A program made the translations under genes and the position numbers. 36,805 nt of DNA. Source: Geobacteraceae bacterium. GTDB taxonomy: Bacteria; Desulfobacterota; Desulfuromonadia; Geobacterales; Geobacteraceae. This document shows, one piece after another, positions 4,889 through 27,258 of the stretch. Within the stretch, counting starts at the first letter, position 1. Each line of letters begins with the position of its first letter. The stretch covers positions 1 to 36,805 of the forward strand of contig JAMXLF010000092.1 of assembly GCA_024281055.1 (NCBI GenBank), written 5' to 3'. The notes under the pieces are model-generated. The model was not told the DNA's origin and did no database searches. It saw only the letters and a program-made list of their open reading frames with translations.

Positions 4889-5413
4889 ATGGCAACTTCA
4901 CGCGGTATTCAGTTGGCGCAGGGAATTCGCCAGAAAGTAGCTGACCTGAAGCAGGCATGCCGGGACGTGGACGAGAGTCTGGCCGCACGCGCACCCAATG
5001 GCCGGTGGTCCCCCAAGGAGATTCTTTCCCACCTGTGTGGTCCCGAGGGCGTGGGGCACCTGCCGCTCCTCAAGGCCTTTGTTGACCGCGATATCCCGCA
5101 GCTCGCTCTCGATGCCGGGAATCCGTTCTTTACCCCGCAGCGGGCGGCCATGAGCTTCAGCGAGCTGATGGCGGAGTGCGAAGCGAACTACCAGCGGGTG
5201 GCCGGCTTCGCCGAGGAGCTGACCGAGGAGCAACTGGCACGAACAGCGCATGTTCCGGAGTTGAAAGAGTCACCGCTCGGCGAGTACCCCACGCTCGACG
5301 GGATGATCCATGGGCTGGGCGAGTTCCACATCCAGTTTCACATCGACCACATGCGCGAGATCCTGGCAGCGCTTGCGCAGAGCGAGCAGAAGGGCAGGGG
5401 GGGCAGGTCTTGA
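4889..5413 (+). CDS. DinB/YfiT-like (DinB_2, DUF664) four-helix-bundle metalloenzyme-superfamily protein
   Basis: Strong SD aaggagg 7 nt before ATG 4889. ...NGRWSPKEILSHL...GMIHGLGEFHIQFHIDHMREI is typical of the DinB_2 family. Confidence 0.75.
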   Translation: MATSRGIQLAQGIRQKVADLKQACRDVDESLAARAPNGRWSPKEILSHLCGPEGVGHLPLLKAFVDRDIPQLALDAGNPFFTPQRAAMSFSELMAECEANYQRVAGFAEELTEEQLARTAHVPELKESPLGEYPTLDGMIHGLGEFHIQFHIDHMREILAALAQSEQKGRGGRS

Positions 5414-5451: not shown

Positions 5452-5488
5452 AAAAAAGCCCGCCAAAAGCGGGCTTTCCTGCCTGTCC
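5452..5488 (+). terminator. Intrinsic terminator or REP of the Geobacter-type family
   Basis: aaaaaagcccgccaaaagcgggctttcctgcctgtcc, a hairpin plus a conserved tail, lies downstream of the DinB-like gene. Confidence 0.6.
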
Positions 5489-5531: not shown

Positions 5532-5873
5532 CTATGCGCAGGTTACCCGCATACGTCCGATCCCACTCTTTTTTCGGTCCTTGATGACGATATCAACATC
5601 ACGGCCGAGAAGGTTAAGGAGGTGGCAGAGCTTTTCAAGCGAGAATCCCCGGAGCTTACCATGCTGAATCATGGAAACCTTCGGCTGCGGGATCCCAAGG
5701 ATCGCCGCAGCCTGTGTCTGCGAGAGATGACGTTTTTCAATTATGTTGTTGATTTTCATTGCCAGATTACTTTTTACCAGTAATTCTTCGGAATCCGGTA
5801 ATCCCAAGTCTTCGAACACATTGCCTGAAGAGGGCGTTACACTAATTTCTTCCTGTAATCCTGTCTTTTTCAT
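5532..5873 (-). CDS. higA: HigA-type HTH (XRE family) antitoxin
   Basis: ...GNVFEDLGLPDSEELLVKSNLAMKINNIIEKRHLSQTQAAAILGIPQPKVSMIQHGKLRGFSLEKLCHLLNLLGRDVDIVI is the classic HigA-like antidote pattern. It lies immediately downstream of the HigB-like toxin on the same strand. Confidence 0.8.
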   Translation of the reverse strand: MKKTGLQEEISVTPSSGNVFEDLGLPDSEELLVKSNLAMKINNIIEKRHLSQTQAAAILGIPQPKVSMIQHGKLRGFSLEKLCHLLNLLGRDVDIVIKDRKKSGIGRMRVTCA

Positions 5874-5925
5874 ATCTAAAATCCTTTTAGATGCCCCACT
5901 TGGGCCAGTAACTTTAATGGACCTT

Positions 5926-6274
5926 CTAGTTGCCTGCCAATTCTTTCGCTTTCTTGAGCCGTGCCTTGAGGACCTCGATCTCGTATTTCGGGGTTTCTAT
6001 TCCCTTCTTCGACTTTTTCTGGAAAGCGTGCAGGACGTAAACTTTATCGCCGATCTTGACGGTATACATAACCCGGTATGTGTTACCGTCGTGGTCATCG
6101 CAAATTTCAATGACCGTAGCCCCGCCGCCGATGCCTTTAAGCGGTTTGGTCTGTTGTGATTTCCCTCCTTCTTGCGCGACCCGGAGAGCATACCCCATGC
6201 TGATCCGCGTCTCTTCCGGTAAGCCTCGCAGGACTTCCAGGGAGTCACCTAAAAAAAACTACATCCTTTGCCAT
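5926..6274 (-). pseudogene. higB: HigB-like (RelE/ParE superfamily, phage-derived COG4679-type) toxin, interrupted by a frameshift in an A8/T8 homopolymer
   Basis: The listed ORF 5926..6198 (MGYALRVAQEGGKSQQTKPLKGIGGGATVIEI...VYVLHAFQKKSKKGIETPK) lacks the family N-terminus. An ATG at 6274 with a strong SD (ggaggtgaa-ATG) encodes MAKDVVFF and then stops. Removing one base from the 8-A run (plus strand 6251-6258) restores a full-length 117-aa toxin: MAKDVVFLGDSLEVLRGLPEETRISMGYALRVAQ.... Confidence 0.7.
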
Positions 6275-6470
6275 TTCACCTCCGGATTCGTCATCTCTCG
6301 CAGGTGTGTTAATCATTATACCAAAAGAGGTATGGGGTCAAGCGTAAAAAAACGTTATTGCTCCGGCAACTAAACAGAGTTGAATTCCAAGGCATGGGGT
6401 CAGGCTTTGCATTTGGTGATATAAATACGGTGTCCCGAAAGCACCCGCGACATACAAGAGGCAACTACCT

Positions 6471-11730: not shown

Positions 11731-12387
11731 ATGGCCTTATGCAGCAGCTGTTCAGCGCCGCTTCCCGTCAACGACTGCCGGTGCAGCTATTGCGGTACCC
11801 GCAACGACATGGATTTTGCCGCCGTGGATCGCTACACCGTCGCCCGAGAACCGTCCCGGCGCCAGTGCCCGGATTGCGCGATCCCCCTCCAGACGGTCCG
11901 GGTCGATACCGGCGCCGGAGTTTTCGCCATCGAGCGCTGCGAGCACTGTTACGGTCTCTTTTTCGACGTGGGGGAGGTCCAGGCATTCCTCGATGCCTCC
12001 GTTACCCCAGCCTTCGCCGTCAACCTCCGCGAGATAGCCCTCATCAACGAGGAACGGGGCGCCGTCCGTCCGGTTCGCTACATCAAGTGTCCCGAATGCG
12101 GCGTGTTGATGAATCGCATGAATTACGGCGCCAGGAGCGGCGTCGTGGTGGACCAGTGCAAGGATCACGGCATGTGGCTGGACAATGGTGAGCTGGTTCA
12201 CCTGATGGAGTGGAAGAAGGCGGGGGGGCAGCTCCAGGCGCAGAAAGAGCAGGCCGAGGAGCGGGAAAGACGGGAGTATGTCAGGCCCGTCCCCGACTAT
12301 CCGATGTCGGGATGTCTGGAGACGAGCGCTGCGGGGGACCTGCTGGGTGCGGCCTGTACGGTGCTTTTGGAGACTTTGTTTCGCTGA
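11731..12387 (+). CDS. Zinc-ribbon protein (zf-TFIIB-like, two CxxC...CxxC modules), partner of the SPFH protein
   Basis: MALCSSCSAPLPVNDCRCSYCGT... and ...CPDCAIPLQ...CEHCYGLFFDVGEVQ / ...CPECGVLMNRMNY...CKDHGMWLDNGELVHL. An SD-like gaggg lies 7 nt before ATG 11731. The pairing with SPFH is the familiar NfeD-like arrangement. Confidence 0.7.
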   Translation: MALCSSCSAPLPVNDCRCSYCGTRNDMDFAAVDRYTVAREPSRRQCPDCAIPLQTVRVDTGAGVFAIERCEHCYGLFFDVGEVQAFLDASVTPAFAVNLREIALINEERGAVRPVRYIKCPECGVLMNRMNYGARSGVVVDQCKDHGMWLDNGELVHLMEWKKAGGQLQAQKEQAEERERREYVRPVPDYPMSGCLETSAAGDLLGAACTVLLETLFR

Positions 12388-12961: not shown

Positions 12962-13636
12962 ATGAAAAAAATTCTTCTTATCAATCCAGGCAGAGACACT
13001 CTTGCTTTCGTAAATTTTTTTGATCGGGACGGCCTTCGAATCTTCACTGCCACCACAGCGGAAGAAGGGCTCAGGATTCACCGTGAGGAAATGGTCAATC
13101 TGATTCTCATCGAACTCGACCTTCCCGACATGGGGGGGGACTCACTCTGCTCCCGTATCCGTCAGGACCAATCACTCAGGAATGTTTCCATCATTGTCGT
13201 GTGCGGAGACACGCCGGAAGAGATCGAGAGAGCAGAAAGCTGCGGTGCCAATGCGCGGTTGCTGAAACCGGTCAAGCCGGAGGAACTCGACGACTGCGTC
13301 GGGAAACTCCTGGCTGTCCCGTCGCGCCGGGATTGTCGGGTCCTCGTCAGGGCACAGCTCTATGACCAACGCGGCGTGACGACTTTGTTCGGTACCTCGC
13401 AAAACATCAGCGTTTCCGGACTTCTGATCGAGTCGGACGATCACCTCGCAGTGGGAGACCGGATTTCTTGCGTGTTCTACCTCCCGGACGTTCGCAAGAT
13501 AACGGCCGTTGGGGAGGTTGTCCGGACCACCCGCCTTTCTCGCATCACGAAACAGTATGGAATCAGGTTCGTTTATCTCTACCCCGATGTAAAGGCGGAA
13601 ATAGAAAATTACGTCGCCCTCAACGCGGCAGCCTGA
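12962..13636 (+). CDS. Receiver (REC) domain plus PilZ domain protein (c-di-GMP-binding response regulator)
   Basis: The REC-like N-terminus has the conserved Asp context (LILIELDLPDMGG) and a K (LLKPV). The PilZ motifs RRDCR (RxxxR) and NISVSG (D/NxSxxG) are intact. The N-terminal acidic pocket is atypical (LLINPGRDT instead of the usual DD). Confidence 0.8.
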   Translation: MKKILLINPGRDTLAFVNFFDRDGLRIFTATTAEEGLRIHREEMVNLILIELDLPDMGGDSLCSRIRQDQSLRNVSIIVVCGDTPEEIERAESCGANARLLKPVKPEELDDCVGKLLAVPSRRDCRVLVRAQLYDQRGVTTLFGTSQNISVSGLLIESDDHLAVGDRISCVFYLPDVRKITAVGEVVRTTRLSRITKQYGIRFVYLYPDVKAEIENYVALNAAA

Positions 13637-13788: not shown

Positions 13789-15099
13789 ATGAAAAAAATC
13801 GCAGTAGCCCTCGTGGCCGTCGTCGTGCTCGGAACGATTCTGTTCTATTTTCTCGGGTCCCCCGCTCCCAAGGTGTCACTGAGCCCTGACGCAGGCCTGA
13901 TCGGCGCCGGCCGTGAGCTTGCCCTGAAGCTGGACGCACAGGGAGGGGGGCTGAAAAAGCTGTCTGTCAGCGCAGTACAAGGGGAGAAGATGGTCACGAT
14001 CCTGGCGAAGGATTATCCCCCTGGCAGCCGCCAGGCCGCGGAGGCGTTCAATCTGGCCAAAGCCGGCCTGAAGGATGGGACATTCACCCTGCAGGTCGAT
14101 GCGACAGGCTCCGCACCCCGTTTTGGCGCGGCCAGGACCACAACCCAGGCCCATTCCTTCACCCTGGATACCAAGCCGCTGGACGTGGCGGTCGTGAGCA
14201 TCGCCCATAATATCAACCAGGGCGGCGCGGGACTGGTCGTCTACACCGTTTCGAAGGAGGTTGAAAAGACCGGCATCGTAATCGCCGACCAGTTTTATCC
14301 GGGGTACCGGCAGGGGGGGGATTATTACGCCTGTCTCTTCCCCGCGCCCTACGACATGGACCCCGGCAAGTTCGTGCCGAAGGTGCTGGCGGTCGACCGG
14401 GCAGGGAACGAGAGCCTCGTGGGGATCATCTATCACGTGACTCCCAGGTCCTTTTCGACGGACCGGATCGATCTGACGGATGCCTTCCTCGAAAAGATCG
14501 CCGCGGAGTTCAAGGGAAAGTTCCCGCAAGGGGGAACCAACCTGGAGATATTCCTCAAGGCAAACAGGGACCAGCGCCAGCAGGACCGCAAGGCGATCGC
14601 CGACTACGGCCGGAAGACCTCTCCGACGCCGCTCTGGCAGGGACCCTTTCTCCGCATGCCGAACACCGCCCCCCTCGGCGGTTTCGCCCAGGCACGCACC
14701 TATGTATACCAGGGGAAAGAGGTCGACCGGCAGACACATCTCGGCTTCGACCTGGCATCGGTGGCCCACGCCGACGTGCCGGCCGCCAACCGCGGCACGG
14801 TCGTCTTTGCCGGCGACTTCGGCATCTATGGCCAATGCATCATCATCGACCACGGGCTGGGGCTGCAGAGTATCTACGGGCACCTGAGCCGGATCGGCGT
14901 CAAGCAGGGTGACAAGGTGGAAAAAGGACAGATAATCGGCAGTACCGGGGCCACCGGCATGGCCGGCGGGGATCACCTCCATTTTGAAACGGTAATCGCC
15001 GGGCAGTCGGTCAATCCGGTCGAATGGTGGGACCCGCACTGGATGAAAAACAACGTCACGGGCAAACTCGAATTGATCAAGGCGCCCACGACCAAATGA
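13789..15099 (+). CDS. M23 family (LytM-type) peptidoglycan metalloendopeptidase with an N-terminal signal anchor
   Basis: I used ATG 13789 (MKKIAVALVAVVVLGTILF...) rather than the long upstream ORF 13468. The C-terminus ...HLGFDLASVAHADVPAANRGTVVFAG...IIIDHGLGLQSIYGHLS...GDHLHFE carries the M23 HxxxD / HxH signature. Confidence 0.8.
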   Translation: MKKIAVALVAVVVLGTILFYFLGSPAPKVSLSPDAGLIGAGRELALKLDAQGGGLKKLSVSAVQGEKMVTILAKDYPPGSRQAAEAFNLAKAGLKDGTFTLQVDATGSAPRFGAARTTTQAHSFTLDTKPLDVAVVSIAHNINQGGAGLVVYTVSKEVEKTGIVIADQFYPGYRQGGDYYACLFPAPYDMDPGKFVPKVLAVDRAGNESLVGIIYHVTPRSFSTDRIDLTDAFLEKIAAEFKGKFPQGGTNLEIFLKANRDQRQQDRKAIADYGRKTSPTPLWQGPFLRMPNTAPLGGFAQARTYVYQGKEVDRQTHLGFDLASVAHADVPAANRGTVVFAGDFGIYGQCIIIDHGLGLQSIYGHLSRIGVKQGDKVEKGQIIGSTGATGMAGGDHLHFETVIAGQSVNPVEWWDPHWMKNNVTGKLELIKAPTTK

Positions 15100-17386: not shown

Positions 17387-17393
17387 TCCATTG

Positions 17394-18173
17394 TCAATAT
17401 GGACCATTCCCTTCTTTCAGGCACCACTCTTTTTTGATCTTGCAGAGTCTTGCGAGCATCTCTTCATACTCCTTGCTGATGGCTGCCCTCTCCGTCAGAT
17501 CGATGGGCTGGATGATGTATCCATGGGGACCCTCCATGATGACAAAGGGATAGAAGCCCCCGCGCTTCGGGGCGCCACCTATGTCTTTATCGGATACATC
17601 GGGGGCGTAGTACATGACGTGTGGGTAATTCATGGTGACGGCTCTGTCGTTTTCTTCTGGGTTCCAGTAGGTCCTCAGTATCGGAGACAGCATGTACGAG
17701 ATGCCGACTCGTTCCGGCGCTTTGTAGTACCCCTTCTGGAAACGCTCCTTTATGATGTTCTTCAGTTCGCCGGGAGGAGTGCCCTTGGCCTGCATTTCCG
17801 CCGCATCGAAGAAGACCCGCATCTGCTGCTTGGCGCCTGCTGCATCGAAGGAAATCGGGTAGAGAATATCATCTCTGTACCTTGTCAAGGGCCAGGACCC
17901 CCTGAACGTATCATCGCCGGTTCGGGCGACGAAGGTGTGGAATCCATTGGTGCCCTTGCGGGCGACCTCGAAGCCCTTGTCGGGGTTCAGTACATAGACG
18001 GTGGCACCGTCCTTAAGGTGCGGCGGCAGAGCGCTGAGCGCCAGCTGCATTTCCAGATCCCGCGGCAGCGGCTCGATCTTGTTCGTCGCCCGGGAAGCCT
18101 GTTTTTCCTCCGCGCTCGCGGCGAACGAGAACAGCAGGCCTGCAATCACCACGATCGTTTGAACCGTTCTCAT
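17394..18173 (-). CDS. Secreted hypothetical protein (signal peptide)
   Basis: The N-terminus MRTVQTIVVIAGLLFSFAASA is a signal peptide. The ORF is 259 aa with coherent codon usage. I recognise no family. Confidence 0.6.
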   Translation of the reverse strand: MRTVQTIVVIAGLLFSFAASAEEKQASRATNKIEPLPRDLEMQLALSALPPHLKDGATVYVLNPDKGFEVARKGTNGFHTFVARTGDDTFRGSWPLTRYRDDILYPISFDAAGAKQQMRVFFDAAEMQAKGTPPGELKNIIKERFQKGYYKAPERVGISYMLSPILRTYWNPEENDRAVTMNYPHVMYYAPDVSDKDIGGAPKRGGFYPFVIMEGPHGYIIQPIDLTERAAISKEYEEMLARLCKIKKEWCLKEGNGPY

Positions 18174-18248
18174 CGCGACCTCCTTCGAAAATGCCGTCGT
18201 TGCGTGAATAGTGACTCTATTCCTTTACCCGTTTCGACGACCGGCACG

Positions 18249-19247
18249 TTACGGGTTTGCGCTGCGCCTTCCGAAGGAGACGGCATAGGCGGCGTCGCGC
18301 GCGGCGATCAGCGGGTCGTCGGATGGCTCGATGCCGTCGGTCAGGCGGCCGGGCAGGAACAAGAGCTTCTTCTCCGCGGCGGTGCTGTCGGCGACGACCC
18401 TGTCGATCGTCAGGACGCCGAGATCGACGACCGGCCGGTCATCGGGCCAGGCCTGGCTCGGGTCCCTGGTAGAGTCGCCGGGTACCGCCAGCTGCGCCTT
18501 GAGGTGGAAGGTCACCGGCCCCTTGGCAAGGCGCGCGGGGAGATCGTCCATCAGGTAGTCGGTCGATTTCTTTGCGGCTTCCTCTTTGCTCAGGTGCACG
18601 ATTTTTTCCGGCGCGACGATGTAGCGGAAAGCCTGTTTCTTGCCCGCCTTGTTGACGAACACGAACGCGTCGACGCCGAAATATTGCTCTTCGGCGAAAC
18701 TGGCCGGCGTGCCGACCGTTGCCGTGGCTTTTGCCACGCTCGGGTGACTGGCGAGAAACGCCTTCAGCTGGGGAGACGGGGATGCGCCGGGCGGGCTCGA
18801 GGCGGCTGCAAGCTGGAGAGCGAGGAACTCCTCCGCCGTCGCCACGGGGAAGAACTTGAGCGCGTTGACAACGATGTCGCTTTCAGCGCCGCCGGGGAGG
18901 TGGAACTTGATCGCCATGCCGTGCGGGTTTGCCACCGGCGCGGCATCGGGCACGTCGGGCTGTCCGCCGGAATCGGAAAAGCGCACGGTCACCGGGAGCT
19001 TCGCGCCGGCGAACAACGGCGACCTGCTCAGGGCCGCGGCTTGCGGCGACGCCGTGAAACTCCCCTCCGCCACGATCCCCTTGGCGTGATTCGCCCGAAA
19101 GCCGGGATGCACGCCGAACCGCTTGTTAAGCGCATCGACGATCTGCACGGGCACGGGTGCATCGGCGGCGCGGACCCAAGTGGGTACGCCCACCGCGATC
19201 GTTGCGGCCAACGCGGCCGCGAGGGTGTTGCTTGCCAAGGTAGCCAT
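18249..19247 (-). CDS. Catalase-related peroxidase (small catalase-family haem protein, SrpA-like) with a signal peptide
   Basis: FRANHAKGIVAEGSF (the catalase distal-His R..HAKG motif), VRFSDSGG and an overall length of about 330 aa are typical of catalase-related haem proteins. The N-terminal MATLASNTLAAALAATIAVG...A is a signal sequence. Confidence 0.7.
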   Translation of the reverse strand: MATLASNTLAAALAATIAVGVPTWVRAADAPVPVQIVDALNKRFGVHPGFRANHAKGIVAEGSFTASPQAAALSRSPLFAGAKLPVTVRFSDSGGQPDVPDAAPVANPHGMAIKFHLPGGAESDIVVNALKFFPVATAEEFLALQLAAASSPPGASPSPQLKAFLASHPSVAKATATVGTPASFAEEQYFGVDAFVFVNKAGKKQAFRYIVAPEKIVHLSKEEAAKKSTDYLMDDLPARLAKGPVTFHLKAQLAVPGDSTRDPSQAWPDDRPVVDLGVLTIDRVVADSTAAEKKLLFLPGRLTDGIEPSDDPLIAARDAAYAVSFGRRSANP

Positions 19248-19357
19248 GGTTCCTCCTCTGTTAGATGATCCGAGCTTGGATGGGGTCGCACGGTCAGGTA
19301 TACAACATTCTAAGGGGATTTCAAGGAGCTGGAGGCAAGGGGGAAGTTATAAGAAAG

Positions 19358-26262: not shown

Positions 26263-26553
26263 GGGGGCACCTCCTGCAGGATACGATCTTGGATACTATA
26301 GGGCATAATTTCCGGGATTACTAGCCTGTTGGTGGAACTGCGAGGCAAGGAAGTCGGGAGGTCTGGTAAAAGGCTCTTCTCAGCGACAATACACAGGTCG
26401 AAAAGGTACAGAGATAGACCTGATTCCGGCAGGACTATTGTCGATGATATTGAGACATGTCAGGACCAGACTCGATACAATGCCTTGATTCTTGCCAGCA
26501 CTTTCTTTATAGTGGGTGCGCTGCCGGCAATCATATCAGTGAGGGGAGCATTG

Positions 26554-27258
26554 ATGCCTCAGACAAGTTCTTTGCCCTCGGGTAATGGTACTAAAATACT
26601 TATTGTCAGTAACTCGCACGGTTTTTTAGAGAGAAACAAAAGACTGTTGAACGGAGTTGGTGTCCGGATACTGACGGCAACCTCTTCCAGAGAAGCTCTC
26701 GAAGTACATCGAAAGGAGCGGGTCAACCTGATCATTGCCATGCTGGACGTGCCGGAGGCGGGAGGCGAGAAGCTTTGCTCTCTTATCCGGCAAGAAGATG
26801 AACTCAGGAACGTCTCGTTTATCCTCGTCCGCAATCATCATCGGGGCAGGGTCGTGCATACTTCGCAATGCGGTGCAAACGTATCGTTTACGCGGCCGGT
26901 TAACGCTGTGCTTCTGCGCGAATCGGTCAAAAGGCTCCTGTCGATCTCGCCGCGCCGAGACCATCGGGCCATTTTCAAGGCCCATGTCCGTGGCACGAAG
27001 GAAAGCTCCTCTTTCACGGGAATATCCCGTAACATAAGTGCCTCGGGTATCCTGATCGAGTCTGACCGGTTGCTTTGCGAGAACGACCTGATCAAAGGGA
27101 TGTTCGTTGTCTCCGGCTCGCTCCTGATAGTTGCGGAAGGGAAGGTCGTTCGCTCCTTGAGACGGCAGGACGGAACATATCATTACGGGGTCCGGTTCGA
27201 CAACCTGGAACCGGAACACAGAAGAGCGATCGAGAAATACGTTGCAAACGGCACTTAG
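26554..27258 (+). CDS. Receiver (REC) plus PilZ domain protein, paralogue of 12962..13636
   Basis: An SD gagggga precedes ATG 26554. It has the same architecture as 12962..13636 and clear sequence similarity to it. PilZ motifs RRDHR and NISASG are present. The REC Asp context is IAMLDVPEAGG. The acidic pocket is again atypical (LIVSNSHGF). Confidence 0.8.
   Translation: MPQTSSLPSGNGTKILIVSNSHGFLERNKRLLNGVGVRILTATSSREALEVHRKERVNLIIAMLDVPEAGGEKLCSLIRQEDELRNVSFILVRNHHRGRVVHTSQCGANVSFTRPVNAVLLRESVKRLLSISPRRDHRAIFKAHVRGTKESSSFTGISRNISASGILIESDRLLCENDLIKGMFVVSGSLLIVAEGKVVRSLRRQDGTYHYGVRFDNLEPEHRRAIEKYVANGT

What the first reader, a model, noticed from the sequence alone, without database searches (positions are those of the whole stretch)
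5926..6274. HigB-like toxin gene is split by a +1 frameshift in an A8 homopolymer; the true start with a strong SD is at 6274
The annotated 90-aa ORF starts at 6198 but lacks the conserved N-terminal beta-strand region of this phage-derived RelE/ParE family. An ATG at 6274 is preceded by ggaggtgaa, and its frame (MAKDVVFF) terminates right after the run of 8 A (plus strand 6251-6258). Deleting a single A gives a continuous 117-aa protein, MAKDVVFLGDSLEVLRGLPEETRISMGYALRVAQEGG...KPLKGIGGGATVIEI.... Its N-terminus aligns with typical family members (MKPLIFLGSSKKDLREFPEEVRREIGYALYLAQ...). The cognate HigA-like antitoxin is intact. This is either a homopolymer sequencing error, a genuinely inactivated toxin with a retained antitoxin, or a slippage-prone phase-variable tract controlling toxin expression.
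Basis: seen in the sequence. Interest (0 to 1): 0.6.

Follow-up and report, generated by a model that had tools for sequence, protein, structure and literature searches.

The report
Frameshifted HigB-type toxin gene, intact antitoxin
A toxin gene of a common bacterial toxin-antitoxin pair is broken near its start by one extra base in a run of eight T's (relatives have seven), while its antitoxin partner is intact; this is an ordinary dead-toxin locus or a one-base sequencing error, not a new mechanism.

Summary
On the minus strand a strong ribosome-binding site (ggaggtgaa, 6283-6275) precedes ATG 6274. That frame reads MAKDVVFFR and stops at TGA 6247-6245, just after a T8 run (6258-6251, A8 on the plus strand). 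Removing one T gives a continuous 115-aa protein (not 117) that matches Pfam Gp49/PF05973 end to end. Its N-terminal 25 residues are 20/25 identical to the closest orthologue.

Six orthologous contigs have T7 in frame at exactly this site, four of them with the same ribosome-binding site. Other relatives interrupt the run with synonymous changes. None of the homologues examined naturally starts at the internal Met26.

The 90-aa ORF would lack strand 1, helix 1 and the first part of helix 2 of the RelE/HigB1 fold. The HTH_37 antitoxin, the promoter/operator palindrome and the terminator are intact.

The rest of the toxin frame shows no decay: 44 of 45 conserved positions are kept, and toxin and antitoxin diverge equally from the nearest orthologue. 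So the event is recent or an artefact. Two other 8-base runs (both G8) lie in Pfam-supported genes that stay in frame.

Best reading: a slipped-strand T7-to-T8 insertion that silences the toxin. A one-base assembly error is the main rival. I found no support for programmed frameshifting or phase variation. Interest is low.

The parts
6315..6341 (-). Promoter with an overlapping operator-like palindrome. TTGACC lies at 6341-6336. cATACC-N6-GGTATA lies at 6334-6317. TGgTATAAT, an extended -10, lies at 6323-6315.
   Evidence: Read directly. TTGAC(A/C) is present in the five sequences that reach it, and TATACC-N6-GGTATA is conserved in the window and all five orthologous loci, with invariant columns in the alignment. 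The consensus scan also places a promoter-like site at 6341-6312. Its function as a HigA operator is inferred, not tested.
6275..6283 (-). Shine-Dalgarno sequence ggaggtgaa of the toxin gene
   Evidence: The identical ggaggtgaaATG is present in orthologues L082, L164, L166, L167 and L163.
6245..6274 (-). Toxin 5' end, now a 9-codon mini-ORF (MAKDVVFFR, stop TGA 6247-6245)
6251..6258 (-). T8 homopolymer (plus-strand A8), the site of the one-base insertion. Six orthologous contigs have T7 here, as GTA/ATA GTT TTT TTA GGT.
5926..6250 (-). Remainder of the toxin coding sequence, in the +1 frame relative to ATG 6274. It includes the called 90-aa ORF at 6198..5926.
   Evidence: Gp49 PF05973. The 90-aa product is recorded as P0031 on a 36805-nt contig.
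5532..5873 (-). Intact HigA-type antitoxin, 113 aa, HTH_37
   Evidence: Pfam PF13744 at 90.6 bits over model positions 1-80 of 80. It is 82-84% identical to the antitoxins of orthologous loci over its full length.
5452..5477 (-). Intrinsic-terminator-like hairpin (AAAGCCCGC-TTTTG-GCGGGCTTT followed by T's) after the antitoxin gene
   Evidence: Read directly. Only sub-threshold Rfam chance hits lie on this hairpin. The simple scan did not report it.

Best explanation
This is a chromosomal, horizontally acquired type II toxin-antitoxin operon of the Gp49 (HigB1-like, RelE/ParE superfamily) / HTH_37 (HigA-like) kind, with the toxin gene first. A T7 run (codons GTT TTT TTA, Val-Phe-Leu) sits six codons into the toxin gene. 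It gained one T by slipped-strand mispairing during replication.

Ribosomes that start at the strong ribosome-binding site now make a 9-residue peptide and stop. Any product from the internal Met26 would lack strand 1, helix 1 and the start of helix 2 of the fold, and it has only a weak GGA ahead of it. The toxin is therefore effectively off.

The antitoxin/repressor has its own ribosome-binding site and is still made from the intact, presumably self-regulated promoter. It survives as an orphan antitoxin.

Shown here: the insertion, the family membership, the intact antitoxin and promoter, and the absence of further decay. Inferred: that the extra base is in the organism rather than only in the assembly, and that the truncated product is inactive.
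For: - **Insertion.** The window has T8. Six orthologous contigs (L082, L164, L165, L166, L167, L172) have T7 in frame, and the first five share the window's leader and ribosome-binding site.
- **Family.** Gp49 is matched at 77.2 bits over the full model once repaired. An AlphaFold model of orthologue P0001 (pLDDT 86.9) finds M. tuberculosis HigB1 (7awk, 7nbu) as the best solved match, TM 0.66-0.68 over 114-119 columns.
- **What is lost.** The model places strand 4-7, helix 11-16 and helix 20-34, so a start at Met26 removes them. G9, F18 and P19 in the lost part are invariant in 45 homologues.
- **No assembly-wide homopolymer problem.** The G8 runs at 13132-13139 and 14313-14320 lie inside Pfam-supported genes that stay in frame, as do the A7 runs in the 773-aa gene.
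- **Two sources.** The same 90-aa product is recorded from both NCBI and Logan. This is weak support that the non-T7 state is reproducible.
- **Toxin loss recurs in this clade.** L163 has a 1-nt deletion mid-gene, and L001 has a 5'-truncated toxin. Both keep an intact antitoxin.
- **Literature.** 8-base homopolymers are indel hotspots for inactivating a costly gene (PMC11023631). Orphan antitoxins are abundant (PMC7192599).
Against: No reads are available, so a consensus error cannot be excluded.

The toxin frame is otherwise pristine. It keeps 44 of 45 conserved positions, and the toxin is 82.6% and the antitoxin 82.3% identical to L164. That is what an artefact would also look like.

No same-species genome exists in the collections to show the allele independently. 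The best toxin hit is 83% identical, and the best hit to the neighbouring gene is 90% identical and sits in a different context.
Confidence: 0.55

Rival explanations
1. This is a sequencing or assembly artefact. The organism has T7 and an intact 115-aa toxin, and the consensus over-called the homopolymer by one base.
For: Apart from the single extra base, the gene is perfect. It keeps 20 of the 21 invariant positions and all 24 nearly invariant ones, and it diverges from L164 as much as its antitoxin does. Homopolymers are the classic site of consensus indels. A related locus from another assembly (L172) is visibly riddled with indels, which shows that such errors or decay occur in this kind of data.
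Against: Two of the three other 8-base runs in the window (both G8) and the 7-base runs examined lie in coding regions that keep their frame, and no other split gene was found. The 90-aa product is listed from two sources, NCBI and Logan. Real frameshifts in toxin genes are common (PMC7192599).
Confidence: 0.32
2. The run is a functional slippery tract. It could be a reversible phase-variable switch (T7 on, T8 off). Alternatively, RNA polymerase or ribosome slippage on U8 could restore the frame in a small fraction of molecules, so the toxin is made at a low, noisy level under excess antitoxin.
For: A/T runs of 8-9 bases can give productive transcriptional slippage in some bacteria, and an A8 run gives about a tenth full-length product in one cited case (PMC1088944). 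Losing one U or gaining two would restore the frame. The ribosome-binding site, promoter and operator are intact.
Against: - The frameshift is not conserved. Relatives that carry the run have T7 in frame, and the run is interrupted by synonymous changes in L163, L171, L170, L162 and L002.
- Of the four short or altered-length products among the listed hits (P0062, P0080, P0099, P0112), P0080 is a start miscall, P0062 is 5'-truncated and P0112 is frameshifted mid-gene, all away from the run; P0099 (76 aa) was not examined.
- A -1 ribosomal slip would run into UAG. A +1 slip would re-pair tRNA-Phe on UUA, which is a poor match.
- There is no RNA structure downstream (z = +0.40) and no Rfam element.
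- The SD-like AAGGA upstream of the run is absent from orthologues.
- Eight bases is short for a contingency locus.
Confidence: 0.1
3. The 90-aa ORF from ATG 6198 is the real, functional toxin, with a naturally short N-terminus.
For: The catalytic-side conserved residues (R67, Y70, H82, K86, K87, K89, R105 in repaired numbering) all lie in the 90-aa part. Met26 is nearly invariant, so an ATG is always there.
Against: None of the aligned homologues starts there. All 161 loci fetched by similarity to the toxin match from query residue 1-7. P0080, the only look-alike, is a miscalled start. The missing segment holds a core strand and helix plus invariant G9, F18 and P19. Only a 3-base GGA precedes ATG 6198.
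Confidence: 0.03

Closest known systems
Gp49-family toxins (Pfam PF05973), e.g. Mycobacterium tuberculosis HigB1 / HigB-TAC (Rv1955; PDB 7awk, 7nbu)
   Same: The profile match is above the Pfam cut-off. The fold is RelE-like, with four strands, helices and the long C-terminal helix typical of Gp49-like toxins (PMC9098466). The toxin gene is first and an HTH antitoxin follows (PMC11980606).
   Different: Only about 19% identical to HigB1. There is no SecB-like chaperone gene. In the window the gene is frameshifted, so no full-length toxin is encoded. Ribosome-dependent mRNA cleavage is assumed from the family, not tested.
Gp49 / HTH_37 toxin-antitoxin pairs described on Tn3-family transposons (PMC7157771)
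   Same: The Pfam pair is the same (PF05973 toxin, PF13744 HigA-type antitoxin), and so is the toxin-then-antitoxin order. That paper also notes a transposon (Tn5501.5) with a truncated toxin and an intact antitoxin.
   Different: No transposase or resolvase lies next to the locus here. The neighbours are a DinB_2 gene and an MJ1316-domain gene. The locus looks like a small low-GC accessory insertion in a Geobacteraceae-like chromosome (48.5% vs 56% GC).
Homopolymer indel inactivation of a costly gene (A8 run in Vibrio cholerae intIA, PMC11023631) and orphan antitoxins (PMC7192599)
   Same: An 8-base A/T run near the 5' end is the site of a frameshifting indel that knocks out a potentially harmful gene. 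The antitoxin is left without a working toxin.
   Different: There the selection and the mutation frequency were measured experimentally. Here the event is a single observation in one assembly.
Genes rescued or regulated by transcriptional slippage on 9A/9T runs (IS elements, Thermus dnaX, Shigella mxiE; PMC1088944)
   Same: An out-of-frame junction lies in an A/T homopolymer, and slippage could in principle restore the frame.
   Different: The run has 8 bases, not 9 or more. The out-of-frame arrangement is not conserved in orthologues, which are simply in frame with T7.

Membership tests
Gp49 / HigB1-like toxin (PF05973, RelE/ParE superfamily) | Sequence match to the family profile above the curated cut-off | tested here: met
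   The repaired protein scores 77.2 bits and the 90-aa ORF 67.3 bits, against a cut-off of 23.9. PHROG 2523 matches at 73.1 bits.
Gp49 / HigB1-like toxin (PF05973, RelE/ParE superfamily) | Complete coding sequence covering the whole domain | tested here: not met
   The frame is broken at the T8 run. Only model positions 14-90 are encoded in one ORF. As it stands the gene is a frameshifted (pseudo)gene member.
Gp49 / HigB1-like toxin (PF05973, RelE/ParE superfamily) | RelE-like fold with a long C-terminal helix | tested here: met
   Tested on orthologue P0001, which is 83% identical and the same length. Model pLDDT is 86.9. The best PDB matches are HigB1 7awk and 7nbu (TM 0.66-0.68), followed by RelE structures.
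Gp49 / HigB1-like toxin (PF05973, RelE/ParE superfamily) | Ribosome-dependent mRNA cleavage and toxicity neutralised by the partner | not testable with these tools
   Known for family members (PMC9098466, PMC7192599).
Type II TA operon of the HigBA layout | Toxin gene upstream of an HTH antitoxin gene in one operon, with promoter and operator | tested here: met
   The toxin (6274..5926) is followed 52 nt later by the HTH_37 gene (5873..5532). A conserved promoter and palindrome lie upstream. Orthologous loci have the same pair.
Phase-variable (contingency) homopolymer locus | Tract length varies between close relatives or within a population, and the tract is preserved against synonymous interruption | tested here: not met
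   Six relatives' contigs carry T7 and only the window carries T8. The run is interrupted in L163, L171, L170, L162 and L002. None of the short products examined among the listed close orthologues is out of frame at the run; the 76-aa P0099 was not examined. No same-species genomes or reads were available, so within-population variation is untested.
Programmed frameshifting or transcriptional slippage | The out-of-frame arrangement is conserved in orthologues, with stimulatory elements | tested here: not met
   Orthologues are in frame. The downstream fold is no better than shuffles (z = +0.40). There is no Rfam match. A -1 shift meets UAG.

The most novel reading that the evidence does not exclude
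The T8 allele is real and leaky. RNA polymerase slippage on the U8/A8 hybrid, or reversible T7/T8 switching in the population, yields a small stochastic fraction of full-length HigB1-like toxin against full antitoxin output. The homopolymer would then act as an expression attenuator or bet-hedging switch for a toxin-antitoxin module.
Probability: 0.07. Interest if true: 0.5.

Novelty: already known. Interest (0 to 1): 0.12.

Why it matters
The main value is for annotation. The 90-aa 'RelE/ParE family toxin' call should be replaced by a frameshifted 115-aa Gp49/HigB1-type gene starting at 6274, and the HTH_37 gene should be flagged as a probable orphan antitoxin.

It adds one more example of toxin loss with antitoxin retention. 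Two further independent disruptions in the same orthologue clade (L163 and L001) show that such decay recurs there.

It would matter more only if the run proved to be a working slippage switch for toxin dosage, and nothing here supports that.

Tried and rejected
- **Looking up the window's own contig.** I tried its toxin and antitoxin products, to learn the organism, sample and sequencing platform. Neither is on record in the contig index. The cluster look-up gave only 'NCBI, Logan' without accessions.
- **Looking for a same-species relative to compare tract length.** The toxin search tops out at 83% identity. The neighbouring DinB_2 gene tops out at 90%, and that relative (L173) has no TA locus beside it.
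- **Genome and metagenome scans.** They returned 160 loci, but only two close ones, L002 and L082. The rest are too distant to inform on the run.
- **Short look-alike proteins as possible repeats of the same frameshift.** P0080 is a start miscall. P0062 is a 5' truncation with unrelated upstream DNA. P0112 has a different, mid-gene deletion. P0099 (76 aa) was not followed up.
- **PDB sequence searches.** A single sequence and a profile both found nothing useful. The fold search was needed.
- **Viral-contig pattern scan for the tract.** It gave two chance hits with no toxin homology.
- **NCBIfam and PADLOC.** No hits.
- **A second homopolymer frameshift at G7 12222-12228.** This was a candidate from a crude indel test, but Pfam did not support it.
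- **GC3-based gene map to search the whole window for frame switches.** It was too noisy to use.
- **Programmed ribosomal frameshift.** Rejected on codon geometry, the lack of a downstream structure and the lack of conservation.

Full report
**What is in the sequence.** Reading the minus strand, ggaggtgaa (6283-6275) is followed by ATG at 6274-6272. The codons are ATG GCA AAG GAT GTA GTT TTT TTT AGG TGA, which gives MAKDVVFFR and a stop at 6247-6245. The eight T's occupy 6258-6251 (plus-strand A8, 6251-6258).

The called 90-aa ORF starts at ATG 6198 and ends at 5926. Its frame is open back to 6258 and is the +1 frame relative to ATG 6274. This is the only A/T run of 8 or more bases in the window.

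**Is the split real homology or chance?** The repaired protein matches Pfam Gp49 (PF05973) at 77.2 bits over model positions 2-90 of 90. The 90-aa ORF matches only positions 14-90 at 67.3 bits. PHROG 2523 is matched over positions 3-106 of 108.

A database search found 2074 homologues. The close ones (68-83% identity) are almost all 114-118 aa and begin MSKEVVFLGDS or a variant. In an alignment of 47 sequences none starts at Met26. G9, F18 and P19, which lie in the segment the 90-aa ORF lacks, are invariant in 45 homologues. The 25 recovered residues are 20/25 identical to P0001.

The one 89-aa look-alike (P0080, Geomesophilobacter sediminis) is also annotated on the same contig as a 125-aa protein, so it is a start miscall.

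**Tract length in relatives.** I fetched DNA for the closest orthologues. L082, L164, L165, L166 and L167 have the same leader (cctgcgagagatgac...ggaggtgaaATG) and GTA GTT TTT TTA GGT GA, which is T7 and in frame. L172, from another subclade, also has T7 as ATA GTT TTT TTA GGT.

The run is interrupted in the others:
- L163: GTG TTT TTA
- L171: GTG TTT TTA
- L170: GTT TTC TTA
- L162: ATT TTC TTG
- L002 (Geomonas oryzae): TTC TTG

. In a MAFFT alignment all five relatives show a single one-base gap in the run relative to the window.

So the window carries a one-base insertion in a run that is T7 where it exists. The run is a by-product of codon choice and is not conserved. Of the four short or altered-length products among the listed hits, three were examined and none is out of frame at the run; the 76-aa P0099 was not examined.

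**What the locus is.** Fifty-two bases after the toxin stop lies a 113-aa HTH_37 (PF13744) protein, matched at 90.6 bits over the full model. It is 82-84% identical to the antitoxins of orthologous loci.

Gp49 toxin followed by an HTH_37/HigA antitoxin is a described type II pair with the toxin gene first (PMC7157771, PMC11980606). According to those reviews the Gp49 family contains HigB1/HigB3/tad-type ribosome-dependent mRNases.

The AlphaFold model has pLDDT 86.9 and pTM 0.81, with strand 4-7, helices 11-16 and 20-34, four further strands and a long C-terminal helix 96-112. Its best solved matches are M. tuberculosis HigB1 (7awk, 7nbu; TM 0.66-0.68 over 114-119 columns), followed by RelE structures. 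This agrees with the published description of Gp49-like toxins (PMC9098466).

A product starting at Met26 would lack strand 1, helix 1 and the first third of helix 2. Only a GGA triplet precedes that ATG.

Upstream, a promoter (TTGACC, then TGgTATAAT) overlaps a palindrome (c)ATACC-N6-GGTATA. The palindrome is conserved in all six loci aligned, and TTGAC(A/C) is present in the five that reach it. I infer this is the HigA operator. A terminator-like hairpin follows the antitoxin at 5477-5452.

The locus has 48.5% GC against 56% for the window. Its neighbours are a DinB_2 gene and an MJ1316-domain gene. These differ from the neighbours in orthologous loci and in the nearest DinB_2 relative. The locus is therefore an accessory insertion in what looks like a Geobacteraceae chromosome, judging by the taxon names on the hits.

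**Real mutation or artefact?** Reads are not available and the contig could not be traced, so this cannot be decided. The evidence points both ways.

For an artefact or a very recent event:
- The toxin frame is otherwise undamaged. It keeps 20 of 21 invariant and all 24 nearly invariant positions. The one exception is F18 to L.
- The toxin (82.6%) and the antitoxin (82.3%) diverge equally from L164.

For a real allele:
- The G8 runs at 13132-13139 and 14313-14320 lie inside a response-regulator/PilZ gene and an M23 peptidase gene that stay in frame.
- The 7-base runs in the 773-aa gene are also clean, and no other split gene turned up.
- The 90-aa product is listed from two sources, NCBI and Logan.
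- Toxin disruption with an intact antitoxin recurs in this clade. L163 has a one-base deletion mid-gene, and L001 has a 5' truncation.
- Eight-base homopolymers are documented indel hotspots for knocking out a costly gene (PMC11023631), and orphan antitoxins are abundant (PMC7192599).

I put a real slipped-strand insertion at about 0.55 and an artefact at about 0.3.

**Programmed or phase-variable reading.** Restoring the frame needs a +1 or -2 shift, or a transcript with one U fewer or two more. A -1 ribosomal slip meets UAG at once. A +1 slip would re-pair tRNA-Phe on UUA.

The 100 nt downstream of the run fold no better than shuffled sequence (z = +0.40). There is no Rfam element. The AAGGA upstream of the run is absent from orthologues.

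Transcriptional slippage is generally evident from about 9 A/T and only sometimes at 8 (PMC1088944). A small leak of full-length toxin is therefore physically possible, but nothing indicates that it is selected. The out-of-frame state is unique to this contig.

**Verdict.** The feature is an ordinary frameshifted member of a well-known toxin family beside an intact antitoxin, or else a one-base consensus error. The useful outcome is a corrected annotation. Interest is low.

Noticed in passing
L162:158-223, L170:130-195, L171:513-575 (orthologous loci): A sister subclade of the toxin orthologues carries a conserved 20-21-codon upstream ORF (MxKxxxxxxSSVVMTQRKExA). It starts at the leader, ribosome-binding site and ATG that are homologous to the window's toxin start. 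In L162 and L170 its stop overlaps the toxin ATG (TAATG); in L171 it ends two bases before the ATG. It looks like a tandem duplication of about 66 nt that created a translationally coupled leader peptide. The window's subclade lacks it.
   Followed up: partly
window 6315-6341 (minus strand) and the aligned orthologue promoters: The promoter-overlapping palindrome TATACC-N6-GGTATA is conserved in all six loci compared and is presumably the HigA operator. The window has C instead of T at the outermost position of the left half-site.
   Followed up: partly
L172 (ENA+NCBI contig_27752), toxin 954-1301 and downstream: This related locus keeps T7 in frame. However, its toxin has a local double frameshift (PLERHRRGATV instead of PLKGIGGGATV), and its antitoxin is broken across three reading frames. 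It is either an indel-rich assembly or a decayed locus.
   Followed up: partly
L163:363-758 and L001:1-399: Two further independent toxin disruptions sit next to intact HTH_37 genes. L163 has a one-base deletion mid-gene (ATGTAC-CCGTC). L001 has a 5'-truncated toxin with unrelated upstream DNA.
   Followed up: yes
window 4889-5413 (+), G7 run at 5397-5403: The DinB_2 gene next to the antitoxin ends 8 residues later (..QSEQKGRGGRS) than its seven closest aligned homologues; listed homologues are mostly 162-168 aa. A G7 run lies in that extra tail. This could be natural variation or a terminal frame change.
   Followed up: partly
window 5532-6274: The TA locus has 48.5% GC against 56% for the window. 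Its flanking genes are not syntenic with those of orthologous TA loci or of the nearest DinB_2 relative (L173). This suggests horizontal acquisition.
   Followed up: partly
window 12962-13636 (+) and 26329-27258 (+): The same 37-kb window holds two separate response-regulator-receiver plus PilZ domain genes.
   Followed up: no
window 17394-18224 (-), 18249-19346 (-) versus 17391-19268 (+): Two adjacent high-GC3 minus-strand ORFs lie opposite a 625-aa plus-strand ORF that has no Pfam hit. Which strand codes, and whether the minus-strand pair is one interrupted gene, was not resolved.
   Followed up: no
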